A stretch of DNA of 49,530 nt from Escherichia phage grams: the sequence record NC_049825.1. One strand, written 5' to 3'. This document shows, one piece after another, positions 357-47,089 of the stretch. The position numbers and the translations under genes were made by a program. Each line of letters opens with the position of its first letter. The stretch's first letter is position 1. The notes beneath the pieces are model-generated. The model saw only the letters and a list, made by a program, of their open reading frames with translations. It did not search any database and was not told the DNA's origin.

Positions 357-402
357 ATTATGCCAGGCTTTTACACCTGGCTTTTAACAAAAAGTGCTAT
401 TT
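357..402 (-). promoter_or_regulatory. conserved 22-bp element plus -10 (CATAAT), leftward
   Basis: AAATAGCACTTTTTGTTAAAAG-N18-CATAAT on minus strand; spacer CCAGGTGTAAAAGCCTGG is a hairpin-forming dyad; stop codon of methyltransferase gene lies inside element. Confidence 0.55.
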
Positions 403-11846: not shown

Positions 11847-13414
11847 TGCTGATTTGGGAAGACTTAACAGCGGCGCAGAAACGCGCCGTTAAGGAAATGA
11901 GCGAATATTCATTCGAAAAGATGATCCGCATTTGGTTTCAATTATTGCAAGGTCAGAAATTCTTAGGAAACTGGCATTTCAGCTACCTATGTAGCGAAGT
12001 TGAAAAAATCATCAAAGGCGAGTCACAGAACGTAATTTTCAACATAACGCCAGGCAGCGGTAAAACAGAGATATTCTCGATCCATATGTCACCTTATGCG
12101 TCATTGAAAAGTAAGAAGGTGCGAAATCTTAATCTTTCGTTTAGTGATGGCCTTGTCCAGCAGAATAGTAACCGAATTAAGGAGATTATTGGTTCTCCAG
12201 AATGGCAGGAGCTATGGCCAGGAAAGCTGGCAAAGGCGAGCGCAAAGGATTTGATTGTAACCGATGGCGGCAAGGTTAAGTTACAAGTTAACTCGCGTTC
12301 TATCGGTGGTCAGGTTACTGGTCTGCGTGGCGGCTACATGGACGATGGATTTACTGGTATGCTGGTTCTTGATGATCCAGACAAGCCGGATGACATGCTT
12401 TCTAAGGTGAAGCGCGAAGCCGGACACATGCGCCTAAAGAACACGGTGCGATCGCGTCGAATGAAGGACACAACGCCCATCGTAATGGTCCAGCAACGGC
12501 TACACGTCAATGATTCAACATGGTTCATGACAAACGGCGGCATGGGCGGCATACAGTTTAAGGTGGTTAGTATTCCGGCGCTCGTTACTAAGGAATATCG
12601 CGAAACGCTTCCTGATTGGTTAAAGCCTGAGTTTGATCGCGATGTTTTGTCCAGTAAGCCAGTGATGATTGATGGAGTTGCTCATTATTCATTCTGGCCT
12701 GCTAAGGAAAGCGCGGAGGAATTGCTTGCGCTTCGAAATGCTGATCCGTACACGTTCGCTAGTCAGTATCAGCAACAGCCTGTTGCGCTTGGCGGTAACG
12801 TGTTTAAAACAGAGTGGTTTCAGTATTACGGCAGCAGCGAGAAATGCACGCTACCAAAACCGGATCGCTTTGAATATACATTTATCACGGTTGATACCGC
12901 ACAGAAAACAGGGGATCTTAACGACTACTCCGTGATCTGTTATTGGGGGATGTATAAAGATCGCGTTTACTTCATTGATGGTGTTCGCGGAAAATGGGAA
13001 GCACCAGACCTTGAGACTAATTTTGTTGCGTTCGTTAATCAGTGCTGGAAGCGCAATAAAGAATGCGGAACGTTGCGAAGGATTCATGTTGAAGATAAAT
13101 CGTCTGGCACTGGTTTGATTCAGAGTGCAGCGAAAAAAATAATGATCAAGATCAATCCCGTTCAGCGCGATAAAGACAAGGTTACTCGTGCAATGGACGC
13201 AGCGCCAGTAATGCGCGCCGGACGCGTAGCACTTCCAGAATCGCATCCTATGCTGGCTGAGATACTCGCTGAAGTTGCGGCGTTTACATTCGATGATTCG
13301 CATCCTCATGATGATATTGTTGATAACATCATTGATGCGGTTAACATTGAAATGAACATGGCAGATGATCCGGTAGGAAGAATGAAAAAATTGGCAGGTT
13401 TGCGGAACAAATAG
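11846..13414 (+). CDS. terminase large subunit
   Basis: 522 aa; P-loop ITPGSGKTE; N-terminal ATPase and C-terminal nuclease-sized domains; position before portal. Confidence 0.8.
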   Translation: MLIWEDLTAAQKRAVKEMSEYSFEKMIRIWFQLLQGQKFLGNWHFSYLCSEVEKIIKGESQNVIFNITPGSGKTEIFSIHMSPYASLKSKKVRNLNLSFSDGLVQQNSNRIKEIIGSPEWQELWPGKLAKASAKDLIVTDGGKVKLQVNSRSIGGQVTGLRGGYMDDGFTGMLVLDDPDKPDDMLSKVKREAGHMRLKNTVRSRRMKDTTPIVMVQQRLHVNDSTWFMTNGGMGGIQFKVVSIPALVTKEYRETLPDWLKPEFDRDVLSSKPVMIDGVAHYSFWPAKESAEELLALRNADPYTFASQYQQQPVALGGNVFKTEWFQYYGSSEKCTLPKPDRFEYTFITVDTAQKTGDLNDYSVICYWGMYKDRVYFIDGVRGKWEAPDLETNFVAFVNQCWKRNKECGTLRRIHVEDKSSGTGLIQSAAKKIMIKINPVQRDKDKVTRAMDAAPVMRAGRVALPESHPMLAEILAEVAAFTFDDSHPHDDIVDNIIDAVNIEMNMADDPVGRMKKLAGLRNK

Positions 13415-13440
13415 CACGAATCGACAAACCAATATATAAT
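13409..13440 (+). promoter_or_regulatory. degenerate copy of conserved element
   Basis: AAATAGCACGAATCGACAAACC followed directly by TATAAT and then a terminator hairpin; architecture differs from other copies. Confidence 0.3.
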
Positions 13441-13444
13441 CAAA

Positions 13445-13468
13445 GGCTGGTAAATCCAGCCTTTTTTA
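13445..13468 (+). terminator. intrinsic terminator
   Basis: GGCTGGTAAATCCAGCC plus T6. Confidence 0.65.
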
Positions 13469-13482
13469 TTGGAGGAAAGATA

Positions 13483-14763
13483 ATGAGTAAATCACGAATC
13501 GTTAAGGCTGACGGCTACAACGAGATCTTTAAAGGCGAGAATTGCAAATCGCGAGTAGAGCAACCATTCTACATGCAGTCAATGCCATACAAGACGCTTG
13601 CTGACTTTTACGAAAAAGATGGCCTGGCAAAAAGGATTATTGACGTAGTGCCAGAGGAAATGGTTTCCCCTGGCTTTACTGTTGACGGCGTGGCAGACGA
13701 GGCAGCATTCCGTTCTTTGTGGGATGAGAAGCGATTGAATGCAAAAATTATTGATGCGCTTTGCTGGTCGCGTTTGTTTGGCGGATCTGCAATCATTGCT
13801 CTTGTTCAGGATGGGCGAGCGCTCAAATCACCTGTAAAGCCTGGTGCCATGTTGGAGGATGTGCGAGTTTACGATCGCTATCAGATTCGCGTTGAAGCGC
13901 GCGAAACTAATCCCCGCAAGGTTCGCTATGGTGAGCCAGTGCTTTACACTGTAACGCCAGGCGGAGACTTGCCGGAATACCAGGTACACTACACGCGCGT
14001 TTGCATTATCGACGGTGAGCGGATACCTAACGCAAAGCGACGCAGCAATGATGGCTGGGGTGAGTCAGTTCTTAACAAGCGACTTGTTGAGGCTATTGTT
14101 GATTATAACTATTGTGAAACATTGGCAACGCAATTATTGCGGCGTAAGCAACAGGCGGTATGGAAGGCTAAAGGACTCGCTGACTTGTGCGATGATGAGG
14201 AAGGTGTTAGCGCGGCACGCCTGAGACTTGCGCAGGTTGACGATGAGGGCGGCGTAGGCAAGGCCATTGGTATTGATGCTGAGGATGAGGAATATGATGT
14301 TCTTAACTCTGACATTAGCGGAGTTGATTCTTTTCTGGAAAAGAAAATGGATCGCATAGTTTCCCTTTCAGGTATTCATGAAATCATCCTGAAAAATAAA
14401 AACGTTGGCGGCGTTAGCGCAAGCCAAAACACGGCGCTTGAAACATTCTATAAACTTATTGAGCGAAAACGCGTTGAGGATTACAAGCCTATCCTTGAAT
14501 TTCTATTGCCGTTCATCATTAGTGAGCAGGAGTGGAGCATTGAGTTTTCACCTTTGAGCGTGCCTAGCGATAAAGATCAGGCTGAAATTCTGAATAAGAA
14601 TATCGACTCAATCAGCAAGGCTATTGATGGTCAGTTCCTTGATGTTGAAGAAGCGCGAGACACGTTGCGAGCAATCGCCCCAAGCGTTAAACTAAAGGAC
14701 ACTAATAAAATCAAGCTGCCGGATCCAACGGAGCCGGAGCCAGGCACACAGGGGAATGAGTAA
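13483..14763 (+). CDS. portal protein
   Basis: 426 aa ORF between terminase and head morphogenesis genes; RBS GGAGGAAAG. Confidence 0.75.
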   Translation: MSKSRIVKADGYNEIFKGENCKSRVEQPFYMQSMPYKTLADFYEKDGLAKRIIDVVPEEMVSPGFTVDGVADEAAFRSLWDEKRLNAKIIDALCWSRLFGGSAIIALVQDGRALKSPVKPGAMLEDVRVYDRYQIRVEARETNPRKVRYGEPVLYTVTPGGDLPEYQVHYTRVCIIDGERIPNAKRRSNDGWGESVLNKRLVEAIVDYNYCETLATQLLRRKQQAVWKAKGLADLCDDEEGVSAARLRLAQVDDEGGVGKAIGIDAEDEEYDVLNSDISGVDSFLEKKMDRIVSLSGIHEIILKNKNVGGVSASQNTALETFYKLIERKRVEDYKPILEFLLPFIISEQEWSIEFSPLSVPSDKDQAEILNKNIDSISKAIDGQFLDVEEARDTLRAIAPSVKLKDTNKIKLPDPTEPEPGTQGNE

Positions 14764-15527
14764 TGAAAGTGAAGGGCGTCGTTAAACAATGGCGCTTTCC
14801 TGAAGCAAGCGAGCGGCAATTTAGCCGCTCAATTCAGGAGGCAATTAGAGATCTTGTAGTTCTCATGCGCAAGCGAACAAAAGCGATGAAGTTTGACGCA
14901 ACAGATAATGAGATCAACAGCGCAGAAGATGAAATTAACAGCCTGGCAACTGACCTTATAGCTGGCATTGTTTCCACTCTTCCTGCAATCGCGTTGACCA
15001 TTTATAAATTCAATGCGAAGCAGTTTATCAATGTTGCCAAGTCAACTGGCGGAAAGGATAATACGGCGGTAATTGTTTTGATCGCTGTTGGCGCTAACGC
15101 TAACGAGGATTGGTATCAGACGCTTTACGGTCAATGGTACGGCCTTACAGAATCATCGCTAAGGAAGTTATTCACAAATATTGTGTCTGACTGGTCAACA
15201 AACATTCGCAATGCAAACTTTCGCGGAAGCAATGATAAACAGGTTAATGATCTTGCAGAAAAGAGATTTGCTGTTTATAGCTCCTGGGGTAAAACTAGAT
15301 CAGAAAACATTATCGGCGCGTGGAATAGTCGCCTGATGCGCCAGCGCCTTTATGATGCTAAGGTGACTCATTATTTCTGGCATGGAATGTTAGATGATAG
15401 AGAGCGCTTGCAGCATGTGTTATGGGAAGGTAAAAGAATAGCGCTTGATGCAATTCATGATTTCCCTGGTGAGCCGTGGGGTTGCCGTTGCTGGGCGATT
15501 CCAGATTGGAATAATAAAGGAGAGTAA
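14763..15527 (+). CDS. head morphogenesis protein (Mu F / SPP1 gp7-like)
   Basis: 254 aa; C-terminal WGCRCW block typical of this family; position after portal. Confidence 0.6.
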   Translation: MKVKGVVKQWRFPEASERQFSRSIQEAIRDLVVLMRKRTKAMKFDATDNEINSAEDEINSLATDLIAGIVSTLPAIALTIYKFNAKQFINVAKSTGGKDNTAVIVLIAVGANANEDWYQTLYGQWYGLTESSLRKLFTNIVSDWSTNIRNANFRGSNDKQVNDLAEKRFAVYSSWGKTRSENIIGAWNSRLMRQRLYDAKVTHYFWHGMLDDRERLQHVLWEGKRIALDAIHDFPGEPWGCRCWAIPDWNNKGE

Positions 15528-17213: not shown

Positions 17214-17648
17214 ATGAGTGATTATTCAGTCATTGTTGGCGCTGAGTCGCCAGGGTGCATGGTCGATTCTTCAATAATGGTGATTAACGGATCTTTCGTG
17301 TGCGGAGATGAATTTATTGCGCCAGGTAAGATTGTGCGACTATCACATATAATAAATGGATACAAAATAGCAAGTGTTAATGGGGATCTTGTTATTGGCG
17401 TGGCAGTAAGGCCGCCGGACTCGTGCATATATGAGGAGGGTGATCCCGTTAATGTGGTTAGTAGAGGTAGTGTGTGGTGCTTAACTTCTGAGAGCGAAGC
17501 GCCAGAATATGGAGATAAAGTATTTGTAACGCAAGATGGAGATGCGGCATACAGTGAAGGCGACTTGCTGAGCGGTTGGATCTTTACTGGCGAACATGTA
17601 AAGGTTGATCATGATTCATATATTGTCGGGGTAAGCATTAGCGCATAA
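17214..17648 (+). CDS. capsid-associated protein, paralogue 2
   Basis: 144 aa; paralogous to 16656..17168. Confidence 0.4.
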   Translation: MSDYSVIVGAESPGCMVDSSIMVINGSFVCGDEFIAPGKIVRLSHIINGYKIASVNGDLVIGVAVRPPDSCIYEEGDPVNVVSRGSVWCLTSESEAPEYGDKVFVTQDGDAAYSEGDLLSGWIFTGEHVKVDHDSYIVGVSISA

Positions 17649-17665
17649 CACAAAATTATGTTGCA

Positions 17666-17687
17666 CGTTTAACAAAAAATGCTATCA
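17666..17687 (-). promoter_or_regulatory. conserved element in orientation opposite to flanking late genes
   Basis: Plus strand reads GTTTAACAAAAAATGCTATCA; no well-spaced -10 on minus strand. Confidence 0.35.
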
Positions 17688-17731
17688 TTGTGGCGTTACA
17701 TACTAACAGCCTTTATATATGGAGGGAGAAA

Positions 17732-18706
17732 ATGGAAAAAGAAAAATTTGATCAGCTAGATGCGGATATTGTTTCTAGCTATCTGGCTACTCGCGGCGTT
17801 AAGGGTGATGCTTCTGATATGGGTATCTGGACGGCGCAAGAGCTTCACAAGATCCGCTCAACTGCTTACGAGAAAGAATATCCGGCAGGTTCAGCGCTTC
17901 GTGTATTCCCTGTAACTAATGAGCTTTCTGATACTGATAAGACTTTTGAATATCAGATGTTTGACAAGGTTGGTTACGCAAAAATTATCGCTGATTACAC
18001 CGACGATCTGCCGACCGTTGACGCGCTGATGTCCAGCGAATTTGGTAAAGTGTTCCGCTTGGGTAACGCGTTCTTGATCTCCATTGACGAAATCAAGGCT
18101 GGTCAGCGCACTGGTAAGAGCCTTTCCACTCGCAAGGCAAACGCAGCGCAAAACGCTCATGATCAGGAAGTTAACCGCCTGGTGTTTAAGGGTTCAAAGC
18201 CGCATAAGATTCTTTCGGTGTTTGAGCACCCTAACCTGACAAAGATCGTGTCAACTGGCTGGTTAAGTGCTGATGAAAACACTAAGTTCCCGCAGGCAGC
18301 ATCTGATGAACTGGAAAAGGCTATTGAAACCATTCAGACCATCACCAATGGTCAGCACCGCGCAACCAATATCCTGATTCCGCCGTCTATGCGCAAGGTT
18401 CTTTCCGTTCGAATGGAAAACACCACTGAAAGTTATCTGGAATACTTCCAGAAACAAAACAGCGGAATCACCATTGACTCAATCGCAGAGCTTGAGGATA
18501 TTGACGGCACAGGAACGAAAGGTTGTCTGGTATATGAGAAAGACCCGATGAACATGTCGATCGAAATTCCAGAAGCATTTAACATGCTTCCTGCGCAACC
18601 AAAAGATCTGCATTTCAAAGTTCCGTGTACTTCAAAATGTACTGGCCTGACGATTTACCGTCCGTTTACGCTAGTGCTTATTACTGGCTTGAAAAAATCA
18701 GGTTAA
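17732..18706 (+). CDS. major capsid protein (putative)
   Basis: 324 aa; strong RBS GGAGGGAG; position after scaffold and before head-tail genes. Confidence 0.6.
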   Translation: MEKEKFDQLDADIVSSYLATRGVKGDASDMGIWTAQELHKIRSTAYEKEYPAGSALRVFPVTNELSDTDKTFEYQMFDKVGYAKIIADYTDDLPTVDALMSSEFGKVFRLGNAFLISIDEIKAGQRTGKSLSTRKANAAQNAHDQEVNRLVFKGSKPHKILSVFEHPNLTKIVSTGWLSADENTKFPQAASDELEKAIETIQTITNGQHRATNILIPPSMRKVLSVRMENTTESYLEYFQKQNSGITIDSIAELEDIDGTGTKGCLVYEKDPMNMSIEIPEAFNMLPAQPKDLHFKVPCTSKCTGLTIYRPFTLVLITGLKKSG

Positions 18707-21359: not shown

Positions 21360-21365
21360 TCACAA

Positions 21366-21388
21366 GGGGCGTTGCGCCCCTTTTTTTG
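21366..21388 (+). terminator. intrinsic terminator
   Basis: GGGGCGTTGCGCCCC plus T7. Confidence 0.8.
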
Positions 21389-21401
21389 TTACTGTACAAT
21401 C

Positions 21402-21447
21402 ATGCTACACGATTCATAATCAATTCTTTTAACAAAAAGTGCTATCA
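21402..21447 (-). promoter_or_regulatory. conserved element plus -10 (TAGCAT) pointing leftward, antisense to late genes
   Basis: Minus-strand reading TGATAGCACTTTTTGTTAAAAG-N18-TAGCAT. Confidence 0.4.
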
Positions 21448-21458
21448 AGGAGAAAGAA

Positions 21459-21776
21459 ATGTCAAAAATGAAATTGACGATTGGGCCGCTTCCTGACTTT
21501 AAATTACCAGTGAAATTTGCAATGCCTAACGGAGAAGATCAAACAATTATCTTCACAGTTCGCCACCGCAAAACAAGTGAGATTCACGAGCGCTACACGT
21601 CAGATACTCCAATGAGCGATGTTGAAATGATTACCTTCCTTGCTTCCGGTTGGAATCTTGATGATGAATTTAACGAAGAAAATATTAAACAGCTTCTTGA
21701 TTACTACCCAGCAACAGCAATCGGATTAACTAGCGCATACATGAAAGCGCTTGCGGGGCAGCGAGTAAAAAACTAA
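21459..21776 (+). CDS. tail assembly chaperone (G-like)
   Basis: 105 aa; ends ...QRVKN stop with slippery AAAAAAC at 21767..21773. Confidence 0.7.
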   Translation: MSKMKLTIGPLPDFKLPVKFAMPNGEDQTIIFTVRHRKTSEIHERYTSDTPMSDVEMITFLASGWNLDDEFNEENIKQLLDYYPATAIGLTSAYMKALAGQRVKN

Positions 21777-32191: not shown

Positions 32192-32222
32192 GTTGGTGTC
32201 TCCTTCGTTGTTGTTGGTTGCA

Positions 32223-32267
32223 ACTATACACGATCTTACAGCAGGCGTTTAGCAAAAAGTGCTATTC
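32223..32267 (-). promoter_or_regulatory. conserved 22-bp element plus -10 (TATAGT), leftward
   Basis: GAATAGCACTTTTTGCTAAACG-N17-TATAGT on minus strand, upstream of lipoprotein gene. Confidence 0.5.
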
Positions 32268-39783: not shown

Positions 39784-40257
39784 TTAGCAATTAGTGCTTT
39801 CAGGTTTATACAGGAATCCGCCAGGTTCATAATCTGACATTCTTACCACTCGCAACATTTCACGCTTATCACATCTCTTTGTGAGCGGTTTACCATTGGA
39901 ATCAAATCGCAGATCTGGACGGCAGAATGACGCGCGATAGCCTTGGCAGCCATATTTTTTGTAATCGTTATGCACCTTTTGAGCGCCAGCGGCTGAAATC
40001 ATACCGCGAACACGCCACTGATTTACAGTTTGCTGGCTAACGTTAAGACGTTTTGCCATTGCTGACACACTTCCGTAATACTCAATAAGGATATCAAGTC
40101 GCGCTTTTAGCCCGGCACGCACCTCATCTTTTAAAACATAGTATCCTGTAGGGCGCTTGCGCTTTTTCTTATCTTTACCCCGTCGAGTTCCGTTATTGCC
40201 ATTAATTGTGCGCTTGTCAATCTTTCCTGTTGATACTGCGATTCGCTGTTCTTTCAT
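39784..40257 (-). CDS. HTH DNA-binding regulator
   Basis: 157 aa; helix-turn-helix AKRLNVSQQTVNQWRVRG; basic N-terminal region; RBS GGAGAA. Confidence 0.6.
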   Translation of the reverse strand: MKEQRIAVSTGKIDKRTINGNNGTRRGKDKKKRKRPTGYYVLKDEVRAGLKARLDILIEYYGSVSAMAKRLNVSQQTVNQWRVRGMISAAGAQKVHNDYKKYGCQGYRASFCRPDLRFDSNGKPLTKRCDKREMLRVVRMSDYEPGGFLYKPESTNC

Positions 40258-40268
40258 TATTCATTCTC

Positions 40269-40314
40269 CAATAGCATTTTTTGTTAAACGATGATTTAAT
40301 GATTGTGTATTATA
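40269..40314 (+). promoter_or_regulatory. conserved element (variant) plus -10 (TATTAT) for helicase operon
   Basis: CAATAGCATTTTTTGTTAAACG-N17-TATTAT. Confidence 0.5.
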
Positions 40315-40336
40315 CACGCCAAATGGCATTACTCAA
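40309..40336 (-). promoter_or_regulatory. sigma70 promoter for regulator/primase operon
   Basis: Minus strand TTGAGT-N16-TATAAT with TG extension; -10 lies in near-palindrome GTGTATTATACAC. Confidence 0.5.
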
Positions 40337-40346
40337 AGGTTTTAGA

Positions 40347-42392: not shown

Positions 42393-42798
42393 TAAAGGCG
42401 ATTATCTGGAGTTTTACGAAAGAGATCCGACAGATACGCTAAAAGAGGAATCTCACCAGATCGGGGCGTTTCAATGGTTAACTTATGCTCATCCTGAATT
42501 ACTGGCATGGCATACGAAAAACGAGGGCGACAAGGGGATCGCCACCGCAATGATGGATCAGCAAGCTGGGCTTGTTAAGGGCGTAAGTGATTTTATCATC
42601 CTGATTGGATTAAAAGGTCGTTACCCGTTCGCGGCAATTGAGATGAAGCGCGTCAATAAGTCCGGCAAGGGTAAGGCTTCACCAGTCAGCAAGGACCAAA
42701 AAGCCTTCTTGCGTCGTGTGCGTGAGCTTGGCGGATTCGCTGCCGTAACATACGGATATAAGCAATTCATGATCGCGGTAGAATACATGATGAAATAG
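42379..42798 (+). CDS. VRR-NUC domain nuclease
   Basis: 139 aa; SDFIILIG...AIEMK block fits PD-(D/E)XK of VRR-NUC; overlaps helicase stop. Confidence 0.55.
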   Translation: MAMTDKGDYLEFYERDPTDTLKEESHQIGAFQWLTYAHPELLAWHTKNEGDKGIATAMMDQQAGLVKGVSDFIILIGLKGRYPFAAIEMKRVNKSGKGKASPVSKDQKAFLRRVRELGGFAAVTYGYKQFMIAVEYMMK

Positions 42799-42838
42799 CA
42801 CTTTTTGTTAAAACAGGCGCGAAGGATTGCGCCATAAT
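42793..42838 (+). promoter_or_regulatory. conserved 22-bp element plus -10 (CATAAT)
   Basis: AAATAGCACTTTTTGTTAAAAC-N18-CATAAT; spacer contains GGCGC...GCGCC dyad; stop TAG inside element. Confidence 0.55.
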
Positions 42839-43578: not shown

Positions 43579-43836
43579 ATGCAGAAAGAAAGAAGAGTTT
43601 TACTTAATGAAGATGGCGAATTTCTTTTGTATCGCGCTATGGTATGCGATGCACTTGATAAAAACCCTAACGTGAAAAAGATGATTGATTGCGATCCGTG
43701 GGAATTTTCAAGCGCATTAGATATGAGCTTTGAGGAGACAAAAAAACTCCCGCTTGAAAAATGGCACGAACAAATCAGAAATGACATGCAAGAATTTGTC
43801 GATTCTTGGAATTTTAAGAACGGAATGATCCACTAA
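43579..43836 (+). CDS. hypothetical protein (85 aa)
   Basis: Internal ATG of track ORF with RBS GGAGC. Confidence 0.45.
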   Translation: MQKERRVLLNEDGEFLLYRAMVCDALDKNPNVKKMIDCDPWEFSSALDMSFEETKKLPLEKWHEQIRNDMQEFVDSWNFKNGMIH

Positions 43837-43879
43837 TAGCACTTTTTGTTAAAACGCCCGGCCTTGTGTCGGGCATAAT
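43834..43879 (+). promoter_or_regulatory. conserved 22-bp element plus -10 (CATAAT)
   Basis: TAATAGCACTTTTTGTTAAAAC-N18-CATAAT; spacer GCCCG...CGGGC dyad; stop TAA inside element. Confidence 0.55.
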
Positions 43880-47043: not shown

Positions 47044-47089
47044 AATATACCCGATACGAGATCGGGTGTTTTAACAAAAAGTGCTATTC
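47044..47089 (-). promoter_or_regulatory. conserved 22-bp element plus -10 (TATATT), leftward
   Basis: GAATAGCACTTTTTGTTAAAAC-N18-TATATT; spacer CCCGAT...ATCGGG dyad. Confidence 0.55.

What the first reader, a model, noticed from the sequence alone, without database searches (positions are those of the whole stretch)
17666..17687. Second reverse-oriented element copy, upstream of the major capsid gene
Plus strand reads GTTTAACAAAAAATGCTATCA, the orientation otherwise linked to leftward transcription, yet flanking genes are rightward. Unlike other copies there is no well-spaced -10 on the minus strand; a plus-strand arrangement TTGCAC-N16-TATCAT (17658..17685) overlaps instead. The element may have an orientation-independent role here (binding site) or be a remnant.
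Basis: seen in the sequence. Interest (0 to 1): 0.4.

Follow-up and report, generated by a model that had tools for sequence, protein, structure and literature searches.

The report
Inverted repeat inside capsid-gene promoter
The sequence is a real, backwards-facing copy of the 18-21 bp repeat that marks about 20 promoters in T1-like phages, and here it forms the spacer of a conserved host-type promoter for the major capsid gene, probably so that the repeat's unknown binding factor can control that promoter.

Summary
GTTTAACAAAAAATGCTATCA lies at 17667-17687 (+). Its 18-bp core occurs 15 times at up to 3 mismatches, against 0.27 expected by chance. The window is a T1-like phage (Drexlerviridae, Hanrivervirus). 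The element is the published TLS "21-nt direct repeat" aaATAGCACnnnTTGnTAAAA, whose function is unknown, and this copy is the orthologue of TLS DR7.

In 16 of 18 good copies, the ATAGCAC>TAAA reading runs with the genes and is followed at N19-20 by a TATAAT-like -10. This copy is inverted and has no such -10. It is not a remnant. The same inverted copy sits upstream of the capsid gene in T1, TLS, Tunavirinae, Tempevirinae, Kyungwonvirus and some Webervirus.

On the + strand the site always reads A-tract, TTGNNN, 16 nt, TGn, TANNNT (74 of 78 loci). In the window this is TTGCAC 17661-66 and TGcTATCAT 17680-88. The 16-nt spacer, which is the repeat, varies less than either hexamer.

Best reading: a sigma-70 capsid promoter with the repeat embedded as an operator. 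The promoter is well supported. The binding factor and the sign of regulation are inferred. Braunvirinae and Rogunavirinae keep the promoter without the repeat, so the repeat is not needed for promoter function.

The parts
17214..17648 (+). Upstream head gene (144 aa; positional counterpart of TLS gp35 HdeC). Its TAA stop at 17646-17648 begins the intergenic region.
   Evidence: ORF list; annotation of relatives.
17652..17655 (+). AAAA at -43..-40 relative to the predicted start. It resembles the proximal half of an UP element.
   Evidence: These four columns are invariant in 33 unique sequences, while the surrounding upstream columns average about 1.2 bits. The UP-element comparison rests on my own knowledge of the consensus.
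17661..17666 (+). -35 hexamer TTGCAC (3 of 6 matches to TTGACA). The TTG is invariant. Orthologues read TTGACG, TTGACC or TTGAAC.
   Evidence: The T1 and TLS orthologues are flagged by the promoter scan at 10/12 and 9/12 with TG.
17668..17685 (-). Inverted copy of the Drexlerviridae repeat. The minus strand reads ATAGCATTTTTTGTTAAA, 17 of 18 against the commonest window copy ATAGCACTTTTTGTTAAA. It occupies -27..-10 of the + strand promoter, covering the spacer, the TG and the first half of the -10. It is the orthologue of TLS DR7.
   Evidence: TLS Table S1. Spacer entropy is 0.15 bits, with 12 of 16 columns invariant.
17680..17688 (+). Extended -10: TG (17680-81), C, then TATCAT (17683-88).
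   Evidence: Orthologues read TATCAT, TATATT, TATTAT or TATTCT, always with T-12, A-11 and T-7.
17695..17695 (+). Predicted transcription start (G, 7 nt after the -10). Inferred, not measured.
   Evidence: Standard sigma-70 geometry applied.
17692..17720 (+). Stem-loop (17692-17698 pairs with 17704-17711) followed by a T-rich run (17712-17720). It is the counterpart of TLS terminator T35. The predicted start falls inside its 5' arm.
   Evidence: Consensus fold with 5 of 8 pairs showing compensatory changes. Read-through RNA folds at -5.4 kcal/mol in the window and -12.6 to -15.1 in relatives. RNA starting at +1 folds at -0.5 to -5.3. T35 is listed.
17721..18706 (+). Shine-Dalgarno GGAGGG (17721-26) and the major capsid gene (ATG 17732, stop 18704-06).
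   Evidence: annotation of relatives.

Best explanation
The 21-mer is a genuine inverted copy of the intergenic repeat shared by T1-like phages. At this site the repeat does not head one of the usual repeat-N20--10 promoter cassettes. Instead it forms the 16-bp spacer, the TG and the first half of the -10 of a host sigma-70 promoter that faces the major capsid gene.

The promoter reads: A-tract 17652-55, -35 TTGCAC 17661-66, TGcTATCAT 17680-88, predicted start near 17695. That start lies inside the 5' arm of a terminator-like hairpin. Read-through RNA from the upstream gene can therefore form the full hairpin, whereas RNA started at this promoter cannot.

The spacer is kept as a bona fide repeat in many lineages and is more conserved than the hexamers. 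I therefore infer that the factor recognising the repeat also binds here. That factor is unidentified. It could be a conserved host protein. The only phage candidate is the Cro-like HTH protein encoded at 39784-40257 (-).

In the roughly 18 co-directional cassettes the repeat spans -50..-33 (centre -41.5) of promoters that have a good -10 and no -35. That is an activator-type position. Here the repeat spans -27..-10, where a bound protein would exclude RNA polymerase. The most likely working is an operator that holds the capsid promoter off while the factor is active on the early and middle cassettes.

What is shown: the repeat copy, its inversion, conservation of the promoter signature, the extra constraint on the spacer, and covariation in the hairpin. 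What is inferred: promoter activity, the start site, factor binding, and the sign and timing of regulation.

My sub-confidences are: promoter about 0.8; repeat maintained here as a functional site about 0.6; repression about 0.4.
For: Repeat family and copy number. It is identical to the published TLS DR family, and this copy corresponds to DR7 on the negative strand.

Cassette architecture: in five genomes, 78 of 86 copies have an A2/T6 hexamer at N19-20 (window table).

The inverted copy is present upstream of the capsid gene in T1 and TLS, in JMPW1, BIFF, BrunoManser, JohannLBurckhardt, ESP2949-1 and LF82-19, and in the IMG/VR relatives with capsid protein identity from 99% down to 53%.

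The pattern TTGNNN-N13-TGN-TANNNT is found in 74 of 78 loci. The four exceptions are one 1-nt deletion, two loci with a 1-nt insertion that keeps a 17-nt spacer, and Rtp, which has TTGCGT-N16-TATAAT. The promoter scan flags the T1 and TLS orthologues.

Entropy across 33 unique sequences: spacer 0.15 bits, -35 hexamer 0.52, -10 hexamer 0.39, flanks about 1.2. Window versus T1: spacer 14/16 identical, flanks 15/30 and 7/14.

One subgroup of Klebsiella phages carries the other recognised repeat subclass in the spacer (GTTTAGCAATTCGTGC, which is ATAGCACGAATTGCTAAA inverted). This is a concerted 4-nt difference that still yields a perfect repeat.

Hairpin covariation and loss of the stem in RNA started at the promoter.

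The same geometry recurs elsewhere. A canonical promoter for the HTH gene reads through an inverted repeat at 40271-40288 (TLS P57/DR11).
Against: No transcript 5' ends or binding data exist for any T1-like phage in the literature I could search.

The -35 in the window matches only 3 of 6 positions, and the window's promoter is not flagged by the consensus scan.

The repeat is dispensable for the promoter. Braunvirinae and Rogunavirinae have the promoter with an unrelated spacer. The GH-K3 type of Webervirus has let the repeat decay to 3 mismatches at repeat-specific positions, while its genome-wide consensus is unchanged. Two loci broke the repeat with a 1-nt insertion.

The repeat is asymmetric, which is unusual for a simple repressor operator.

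The recognition helix of the only annotated HTH protein is not well conserved across subfamilies, although the repeat is.

A repressor model also needs an extra, untested step to release the capsid promoter late in infection.
Confidence: 0.55

Rival explanations
1. Promoter only. The repeat was co-opted once as convenient raw material, since it supplies TGnTAT and an A-rich spacer. It is now conserved for promoter performance or by linkage, and nothing binds it here.
For: The promoter survives without the repeat in Rtp, Veterinaerplatzvirus and e4/1c and with a decayed repeat in GH-K3. The positions that persist in GH-K3 (ATA..CA) are exactly those needed for the -10 and the TG.
Against: Sigma-70 spacers are not normally sequence-constrained, yet 12 of 16 spacer columns are invariant in 33 unique sequences whose flanks are close to randomised. 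The columns that vary most (1, 6 and 13) lie outside the 18-bp core or at positions that also differ among the repeat's other copies. The Klebsiella-phage subgroup changed four positions together, from one repeat subclass to the other.
Confidence: 0.22
2. The repeat is a positive or loading site. The factor bound between -35 and -10 activates the promoter, or modifies RNA polymerase so that it reads through the many late-region terminators, as lambda Q does from a site between -35 and -10 of PR'.
For: The site lies between -35 and -10, and the late region is full of intrinsic terminators.
Against: The repeat covers the TG and half of the -10, so simultaneous occupancy with sigma-70 is hard to picture. 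The spacer is 16 nt, not the over-long 19-20 nt of MerR-type promoters. No conserved -10-like pause element appears in the first 15 transcribed bases; the hairpin loops differ among lineages. The nearest hairpin overlaps the start site rather than lying downstream of it. No Q-like gene is annotated in relatives.
Confidence: 0.08
3. It is a decaying remnant of a leftward repeat-N20--10 cassette.
For: The minus strand has CATAAT only 7 nt from the repeat instead of 20, which could suggest a deletion.
Against: No relative has an A2/T6 hexamer at N20 on the minus strand. They read TATGCG, TATACA, TAGCAC, TATTAG, TAGGGC or TATTGG. The copy is perfect in T1 and conserved across subfamilies, which decay would not produce.
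Confidence: 0.03
4. The repeat has a function unrelated to transcription, such as a nicking, priming or packaging signal, and its overlap with promoters is incidental.
For: The function of the family is formally unknown.
Against: There is a fixed 19-20 nt distance to a -10 hexamer in 78 of 86 copies, and the copies are intergenic just upstream of genes. Here the repeat is in exact register with -35 and -10 in every lineage.
Confidence: 0.05

Closest known systems
TLS '21-nt direct repeats' DR1-DR18 (aaATAGCACnnnTTGnTAAAA), Kropinski, Misra and co-workers 2024, PMC11447400
   Same: It is the same sequence family, with the same subclasses (TTT and GAA in the variable triplet). This copy is the positional orthologue of DR7, which that paper's Table S1 lists on the negative strand.
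   Different: The paper's text says the repeats lie in the direction of transcription, about 76 nt before start codons. It proposes stoperator, enhancer or UP-like roles. This copy is inverted, lacks the downstream -10, and overlaps a canonical promoter on the other strand. The paper does not discuss any of these points.
Extended -10 (TGnTATAAT) sigma-70 promoters of E. coli and its phages
   Same: TG at -15/-14, TANNNT, a 16-nt spacer, a TTG-containing -35 and an upstream A-tract. The promoter scan flags the T1 and TLS orthologues.
   Different: The spacer is itself a conserved repeat shared with about 20 other sites in the genome. Activity has not been measured.
Regulators that act on promoters lacking a -35: class II CRP sites centred at -41.5, lambda CII (TTGC-N6-TTGC around -35), T4 MotA boxes. 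Comparison from my own knowledge.
   Same: The co-directional cassettes have a conserved site where the -35 would be, a good -10 and no -35. The second inverted copy at 21428 heads a possible antisense promoter, reminiscent of the CII-dependent PaQ.
   Different: The sequence and spacing differ from all three. No factor is known. This comparison concerns the family, not the inverted copy itself.
phi29 protein p4 early/late switch. Comparison from my own knowledge.
   Same: One factor and one type of site, with opposite outcomes that depend on promoter geometry and -35 quality.
   Different: The signs would be reversed here (early on, late off). The p4 sites lie upstream of both kinds of promoter rather than inside a spacer. 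There is no homology.
Lambda Q binding element between -35 and -10 of PR'. Comparison from my own knowledge.
   Same: A protein site inside a late promoter's spacer, in a late region rich in terminators.
   Different: There is no conserved pause element, no Q homologue and no downstream leader terminator.

Membership tests
Drexlerviridae intergenic repeat (TLS DR family) | Match to ATAGCACnnnTTGnTAAA(A) | tested here: met
   The minus strand at 17668-17685 reads ATAGCATTTTTTGTTAAA, with 1 mismatch (C7 to T). This is the same variant as TLS DR7.
Drexlerviridae intergenic repeat (TLS DR family) | Intergenic location | tested here: met
   It lies between the stop codon at 17646-17648 and the ATG at 17732.
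Drexlerviridae intergenic repeat (TLS DR family) | Oriented in the direction of transcription of the flanking genes | tested here: not met
   Both flanking genes are on the + strand, and the ATAGCA>TAAA reading is on the - strand.
Drexlerviridae intergenic repeat (TLS DR family) | Followed at N19-20 by a TATAAT-like hexamer, then a leader, SD and start codon about 55-80 nt away. This cassette architecture was derived here. | tested here: not met
   TATGCG at N20 and no ORF downstream. The same absence is seen in T1 and TLS.
Sigma-70 promoter, extended -10 class | -10 hexamer with T-12, A-11 and T-7, preceded by TG at -15/-14 | tested here: met
   TGcTATCAT at 17680-17688. The pattern is kept in 74 of 78 loci.
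Sigma-70 promoter, extended -10 class | -35 hexamer resembling TTGACA at 16-18 nt | tested here: inconclusive
   TTGCAC matches 3 of 6 at 16 nt, below the scan's threshold. The TTG is invariant, and orthologues reach 4-5 of 6.
Sigma-70 promoter, extended -10 class | Initiation by E. coli RNA polymerase holoenzyme at the predicted start | not testable with these tools
   No start-site data were found for any Drexlerviridae.
Operator within a core promoter | Site overlaps -35/-10 and recurs at other regulated promoters | tested here: met
   It spans -27..-10, and there are about 20 further copies in the genome.
Operator within a core promoter | A cognate DNA-binding protein | not testable with these tools
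   The only candidate is a Cro/YdaS-like HTH protein (Pfam just below threshold; phrog_2856; PDB Cro matches). Its recognition helix is variable.
Lambda Q-type antitermination site | Sigma-dependent pause element in the initial transcribed region, plus a Q gene | tested here: not met
   The leader sequences differ among lineages apart from the stem. No Q-like product is annotated in T1, TLS, Rtp, G29-2 or GH-K3.
Known RNA families (Rfam) | Covariance-model match | tested here: not met
   No match in the whole window at gathering score, and none in 17500-17850 at E up to 1.

The most novel reading that the evidence does not exclude
One asymmetric 18-bp site, read by one factor, is used in two geometries to time the T1-like infection cycle. 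Centred at -41.5 it switches on about 18 promoters that lack a -35 (host-takeover and replication genes). Inverted inside or just downstream of canonical sigma-70 promoters, it shuts those promoters while the factor is active. The affected promoters are the capsid promoter here, the tail-chaperone promoter at 21395-21445, and the factor's own candidate gene at 40257-40340. This would answer the question posed in 2024 about what the Drexlerviridae repeats do.
Probability: 0.3. Interest if true: 0.65.

Novelty: new variant of a known kind. Interest (0 to 1): 0.45.

Why it matters
T1-like phages are common. They cause fermentation contaminations and are candidates for phage therapy. They encode no RNA polymerase or sigma factor, and their temporal gene control is essentially unknown. 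[quoted passage not shown]

The inverted copy is the informative exception in the family. It shows the repeat in register with a canonical host promoter for the most abundantly needed late protein, and it is conserved across subfamilies. That turns a descriptive repeat into a concrete hypothesis with exact bases to mutate: activator-type sites at early promoters, and an operator in the capsid promoter.

If the hypothesis is wrong, the result is still a well-defined and widely conserved capsid promoter with an overlapping terminator. That is useful for annotating and engineering these phages.

Tried and rejected
1. I expected co-directional copies to avoid a T at the antisense -7 position, so as not to create reverse promoters. 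They do not: about 20% carry a T there. I dropped the claim.

2. A minus-strand promoter at this copy. There is no A2/T6 hexamer at N19-21 in the window or in any relative. The CATAAT 7 nt away is not conserved.

3. Known RNA element. Rfam gives nothing.

4. Resemblances checked by eye against consensus sequences I know, not with tools:
- rrn boxA (TGCTCTTTAACAA): only TTTAACAA is shared, and most copies would be antisense.
- Sigma-54 (TGGCAC-N5-TTGC): the repeat has AGCAC-N3-TTGC, which is the wrong spacing.
- UP element: the TTTT-NNN-AAA part is about 8 bp out of register in the cassettes.
- TTGNTA acting as a -35: the spacer would be 22 nt.
- CRP, FNR, IHF and DnaA boxes: no convincing match.

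5. Lambda Q-like antitermination. There is no pause element, no Q gene, and the hairpin overlaps the start site.

6. The 32248 copy looked inverted. It is a normal cassette for a 75-aa cor-like gene on the minus strand.

7. Second-site hits in the Klebsiella-phage loci (TTTACCAAACGGTGC...) lie in coding sequence and are false positives.

8. Literature. Eight searches found only the TLS paper describing the repeat. The T1 genome paper is not held. No transcriptome or start-site study of a Drexlerviridae phage was found.

9. The HTH protein as the binder. It is Cro-like, but its recognition helix varies while the repeat does not. The assignment stays a guess, and a conserved host protein is equally possible.

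Full report
**What the window is.** The 2.5 kb around the finding is 97-99% identical to Escherichia phages JLBYU09, BEK12A, G29-2, pSf-1 and others. These are T1-like siphoviruses of Drexlerviridae, Tempevirinae, Hanrivervirus. The finding lies in the 83-nt gap between a 144-aa head gene (17214-17648) and the major capsid gene, whose ATG is at 17732.

**Checking the observation.**
- The 21-mer is on the + strand at 17667-17687.
- Its 18-bp core TTTAACAAAAARTGCTAT has 15 matches at up to 3 mismatches, against 0.27 expected by chance.
- Read the other way, as ATAGCACnnnTTGnTAAA, the window holds 20 copies within 2 mismatches.
- This is the "21-nt direct repeat" aaATAGCACnnnTTGnTAAAA reported for phage TLS. 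That paper says the repeat also occurs in T1, Rtp and Rogue1, and lists its function as an open question.
- I confirmed about 20 copies each in T1, TLS, Rtp and Klebsiella phage GH-K3.

**The normal context of the repeat.**
- In 16 of the 18 best window copies, the ATAGCAC>TAAA reading runs with the neighbouring genes.
- It is followed after 19-20 nt by a TATAAT-like hexamer (CATAAT, TATAAT, TATAGT, TATATT), then a short leader, a Shine-Dalgarno sequence and a start codon 53-81 nt from the repeat.
- Across five genomes, 78 of 86 copies have a hexamer with A at position 2 and T at position 6 at that distance.
- These cassettes have no -35-like hexamer. The repeat spans -50..-33 (centre -41.5), and the intervening 20 nt is often a GC-rich hairpin that the T1 and TLS records annotate as a terminator.
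- The geometry is that of an activator-dependent promoter. That reading is an inference.

**How this copy differs.**
- It is inverted relative to rightward genes.
- It is the only one of the 18 copies within 1 mismatch that lacks a usable -10 at N19-20 on its own strand; it has TATGCG there.
- The only other inverted copy is at 21428. The copy at 32248 looks inverted but is a normal cassette for a small cor-like gene on the minus strand.

**Comparison with relatives.**
- The inverted copy occupies the same place in T1 (15069-15086, perfect match) and in TLS (15025-15042). The TLS paper's Table S1 lists the latter as DR7 on the negative strand, although its text says all repeats follow the direction of transcription.
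- I fetched 77 loci from IMG/VR whose capsid proteins are 99% to 53% identical to this one, plus eight further GenBank phages from other genera.
- Upstream of the capsid gene, 74 of 78 loci fit TTGNNN, 13 nt, TGN, TANNNT on the coding strand.
- The four exceptions are a 1-nt deletion, two loci with a 1-nt insertion that gives a 17-nt spacer, and Rtp (TTGCGT-N16-TATAAT).
- The -35 varies (TTGCAC, TTGAAC, TTGACG, TTGACC) and so does the -10 (TATCAT, TATATT, TATTAT, TATTCT). TTG, TG, T-12, A-11 and T-7 do not vary. That is the pattern expected of a sigma-70 promoter under selection.
- The consensus scan flags the T1 and TLS orthologues at 10/12 and 9/12 with TG. The window's own -35 matches only 3 of 6 and falls below that scan's threshold.
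- An AAAA at -43..-40 is also invariant.

**Evidence that the repeat itself is selected, not just the promoter.**
- In 33 unique sequences from Tempevirinae, Tunavirinae, Kyungwonvirus and an unclassified phage, the 16-nt spacer averages 0.15 bits of entropy, with 12 columns invariant.
- The corresponding values are 0.52 bits for the -35 hexamer, 0.39 for the -10 hexamer and about 1.2 for both flanks.
- Between the window and T1, the spacer is 14/16 identical and the flanks are 15/30 and 7/14.
- The spacer columns that vary most are the base outside the 18-bp core, the N of TTGnTAAA, and the C/T at repeat position 7. The last two positions also differ among the repeat's other copies.
- One subgroup of Klebsiella phages has GTTTAGCAATTCGTGC in the spacer. 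That is a perfect inverted copy of the other common repeat subclass, ATAGCACGAATTGCTAAA, and differs by four concerted changes.

**Evidence that the repeat is not required for the promoter.**
- Rtp, Veterinaerplatzvirus and Rogunavirus e4/1c have TTGCGT-GGGCTAAAAACTCGTG-TATAAT with no repeat, although Rtp has 20 copies elsewhere.
- In the GH-K3 type of Webervirus the copy has decayed to ATATCACGAATCGTTAAG. It keeps only the bases needed for TG and TAT, while that genome's other copies keep the consensus.

**The leader.**
- Immediately after the -10 there is a stem-loop followed by a T-rich run. TLS annotates its counterpart as terminator T35.
- In an alignment of 20 distinct sequences, 5 of 8 predicted pairs show compensatory changes.
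- The standard start, 7 nt after the -10, is G17695. It falls inside the 5' arm of the stem.
- RNA reading through from upstream folds at -12.6 to -15.1 kcal/mol in relatives and -5.4 in the window. RNA beginning at the predicted start keeps only -0.5 to -5.3 kcal/mol.
- The arrangement would stop upstream transcripts and let capsid transcripts through. This is an inference from geometry.

**Mechanism.**
- I commit to this: a host-polymerase promoter for the capsid gene, with the family repeat embedded at -27..-10 as a site for the same factor that recognises the other copies.
- At -41.5 of promoters without a -35, such a factor would recruit polymerase. Across the TG and the -10, it would exclude polymerase. 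So the site would hold the capsid promoter down while the cassettes are being driven.
- Two other places in the window show a canonical promoter reading through an inverted repeat.
- The first is the promoter of the Cro-like HTH gene: TTGAGT-N16-TATAAT on the minus strand, with its -10 overlapping the helicase cassette's TATTAT at 40308-40313. In TLS these are P57 and DR11.
- The second is the region before the tail-chaperone gene, where TACAAT (21395-21400, +) abuts TAGCAT (21402-21407, -), which sits exactly 20 nt from the inverted repeat.

**The factor is unknown.**
- The HTH protein (39784-40257, -) is the only annotated regulator in these genomes. It is Cro-like.
- Its recognition helix varies among subfamilies while the repeat does not. 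A conserved host protein is therefore just as likely.
- No start-site, transcriptome or binding study of a T1-like phage was found.

**Rivals.**
- Promoter only, with the repeat a co-opted spacer: possible (0.22). It is weakened by the spacer being more constrained than the hexamers and by the subclass swap.
- A positive or Q-like loading site: unlikely (0.08). The repeat covers the -10, there is no conserved pause element, and there is no Q gene.
- A decayed leftward cassette: contradicted by conservation (0.03).
- A role outside transcription: does not fit the fixed register with promoter elements (0.05).

**Verdict.**
The "binding site" option and the + strand promoter are supported by comparison, though not by experiment.
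- The element family is already published, and this copy's TLS orthologue is in a supplementary table. The new points are the recognition that it is inverted, that it is embedded in a family-wide capsid promoter and overlapped by a terminator, and that this gives the repeat a testable regulatory logic.
- Interest is moderate.

Noticed in passing
window 21364-21461: This is the second inverted repeat copy (21428-21445), directly 5' of the SD and ATG (21459) of the tail-assembly-chaperone gene. On the + strand, the terminator at 21364-21389 carries a -35-like TTGCGC in its loop, followed by a conserved TAnAAT (TACAAT, 21395-21400). On the - strand, the repeat is followed after exactly 20 nt by TAGCAT (21407-21402), making an early-type cassette that points left into the terminator. 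Both features are conserved in T1 and about 15 lineages. It may be an antisense, promoter-occluding arrangement.
   Followed up: partly
window 40257-40345: These are overlapping divergent promoters. The repeat at 40271-40288 plus N19 plus TATTAT (40308-13) serves the helicase gene. On the other strand, TTGAGT-N16-TATAAT shares the same -10 region and drives the Cro-like HTH gene (39784-40257), whose leader runs through the inverted repeat. This corresponds to TLS P57 and DR11, and it suggests autoregulation.
   Followed up: partly
window 13411-13483: A degenerate co-directional copy (ATAGCACGAATCGACAAA, 2 mismatches) lies right after the large terminase gene. It has no -10 at N20. A terminator hairpin (13444-13466) and then the portal ATG (13483) follow.
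   Followed up: no
window 383-400, 42795-42812, 43836-43853, 47070-47087 and other cassettes; L002 38973-39001, 41980-42007: The 20-nt stretch between the repeat and the -10 is often a GC-rich hairpin, and the T1 and TLS records annotate these as rho-independent terminators. Each cassette may therefore both stop upstream transcription and restart it.
   Followed up: partly
window 17668, 40271, 49237; L003 15025, 49765; L082 133, 13804: The ATAGCAT variant (C7 to T) recurs at the same three kinds of site in different genera: the capsid promoter, the regulator/helicase gap, and the genome-end cassette. It may be an affinity class.
   Followed up: no
L002 34902-34919 (+); L004 33762-33779 (+): T1 and Rtp have another inverted copy immediately 5' of the SD of the minus-strand tail-fibre gene, with no -10 at N20. 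The window has no counterpart at up to 4 mismatches.
   Followed up: no
window 32192-32265: The copy at 32248-32265 sits among rightward tail genes but is a normal minus-strand cassette (N19, TATAGT, SD, ATG) for a 75-aa gene. That gene matches the position and length of the Cor superinfection-exclusion gene of T1 and G29-2.
   Followed up: partly
PMC11447400, text versus Table S1: The TLS paper states that all direct repeats lie in the direction of transcription. Its own Table S1 lists DR7 on the negative strand (15044..15024), inside the rightward late operon and next to terminator T35.
   Followed up: yes
L004 12460-12574; L088; L089: Braunvirinae and Rogunavirinae share a nearly identical 85-nt capsid leader with TTGCGT-N16-TATAAT and no repeat. 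An inverted repeat CCCAC..GTGGG overlaps the -35.
   Followed up: no
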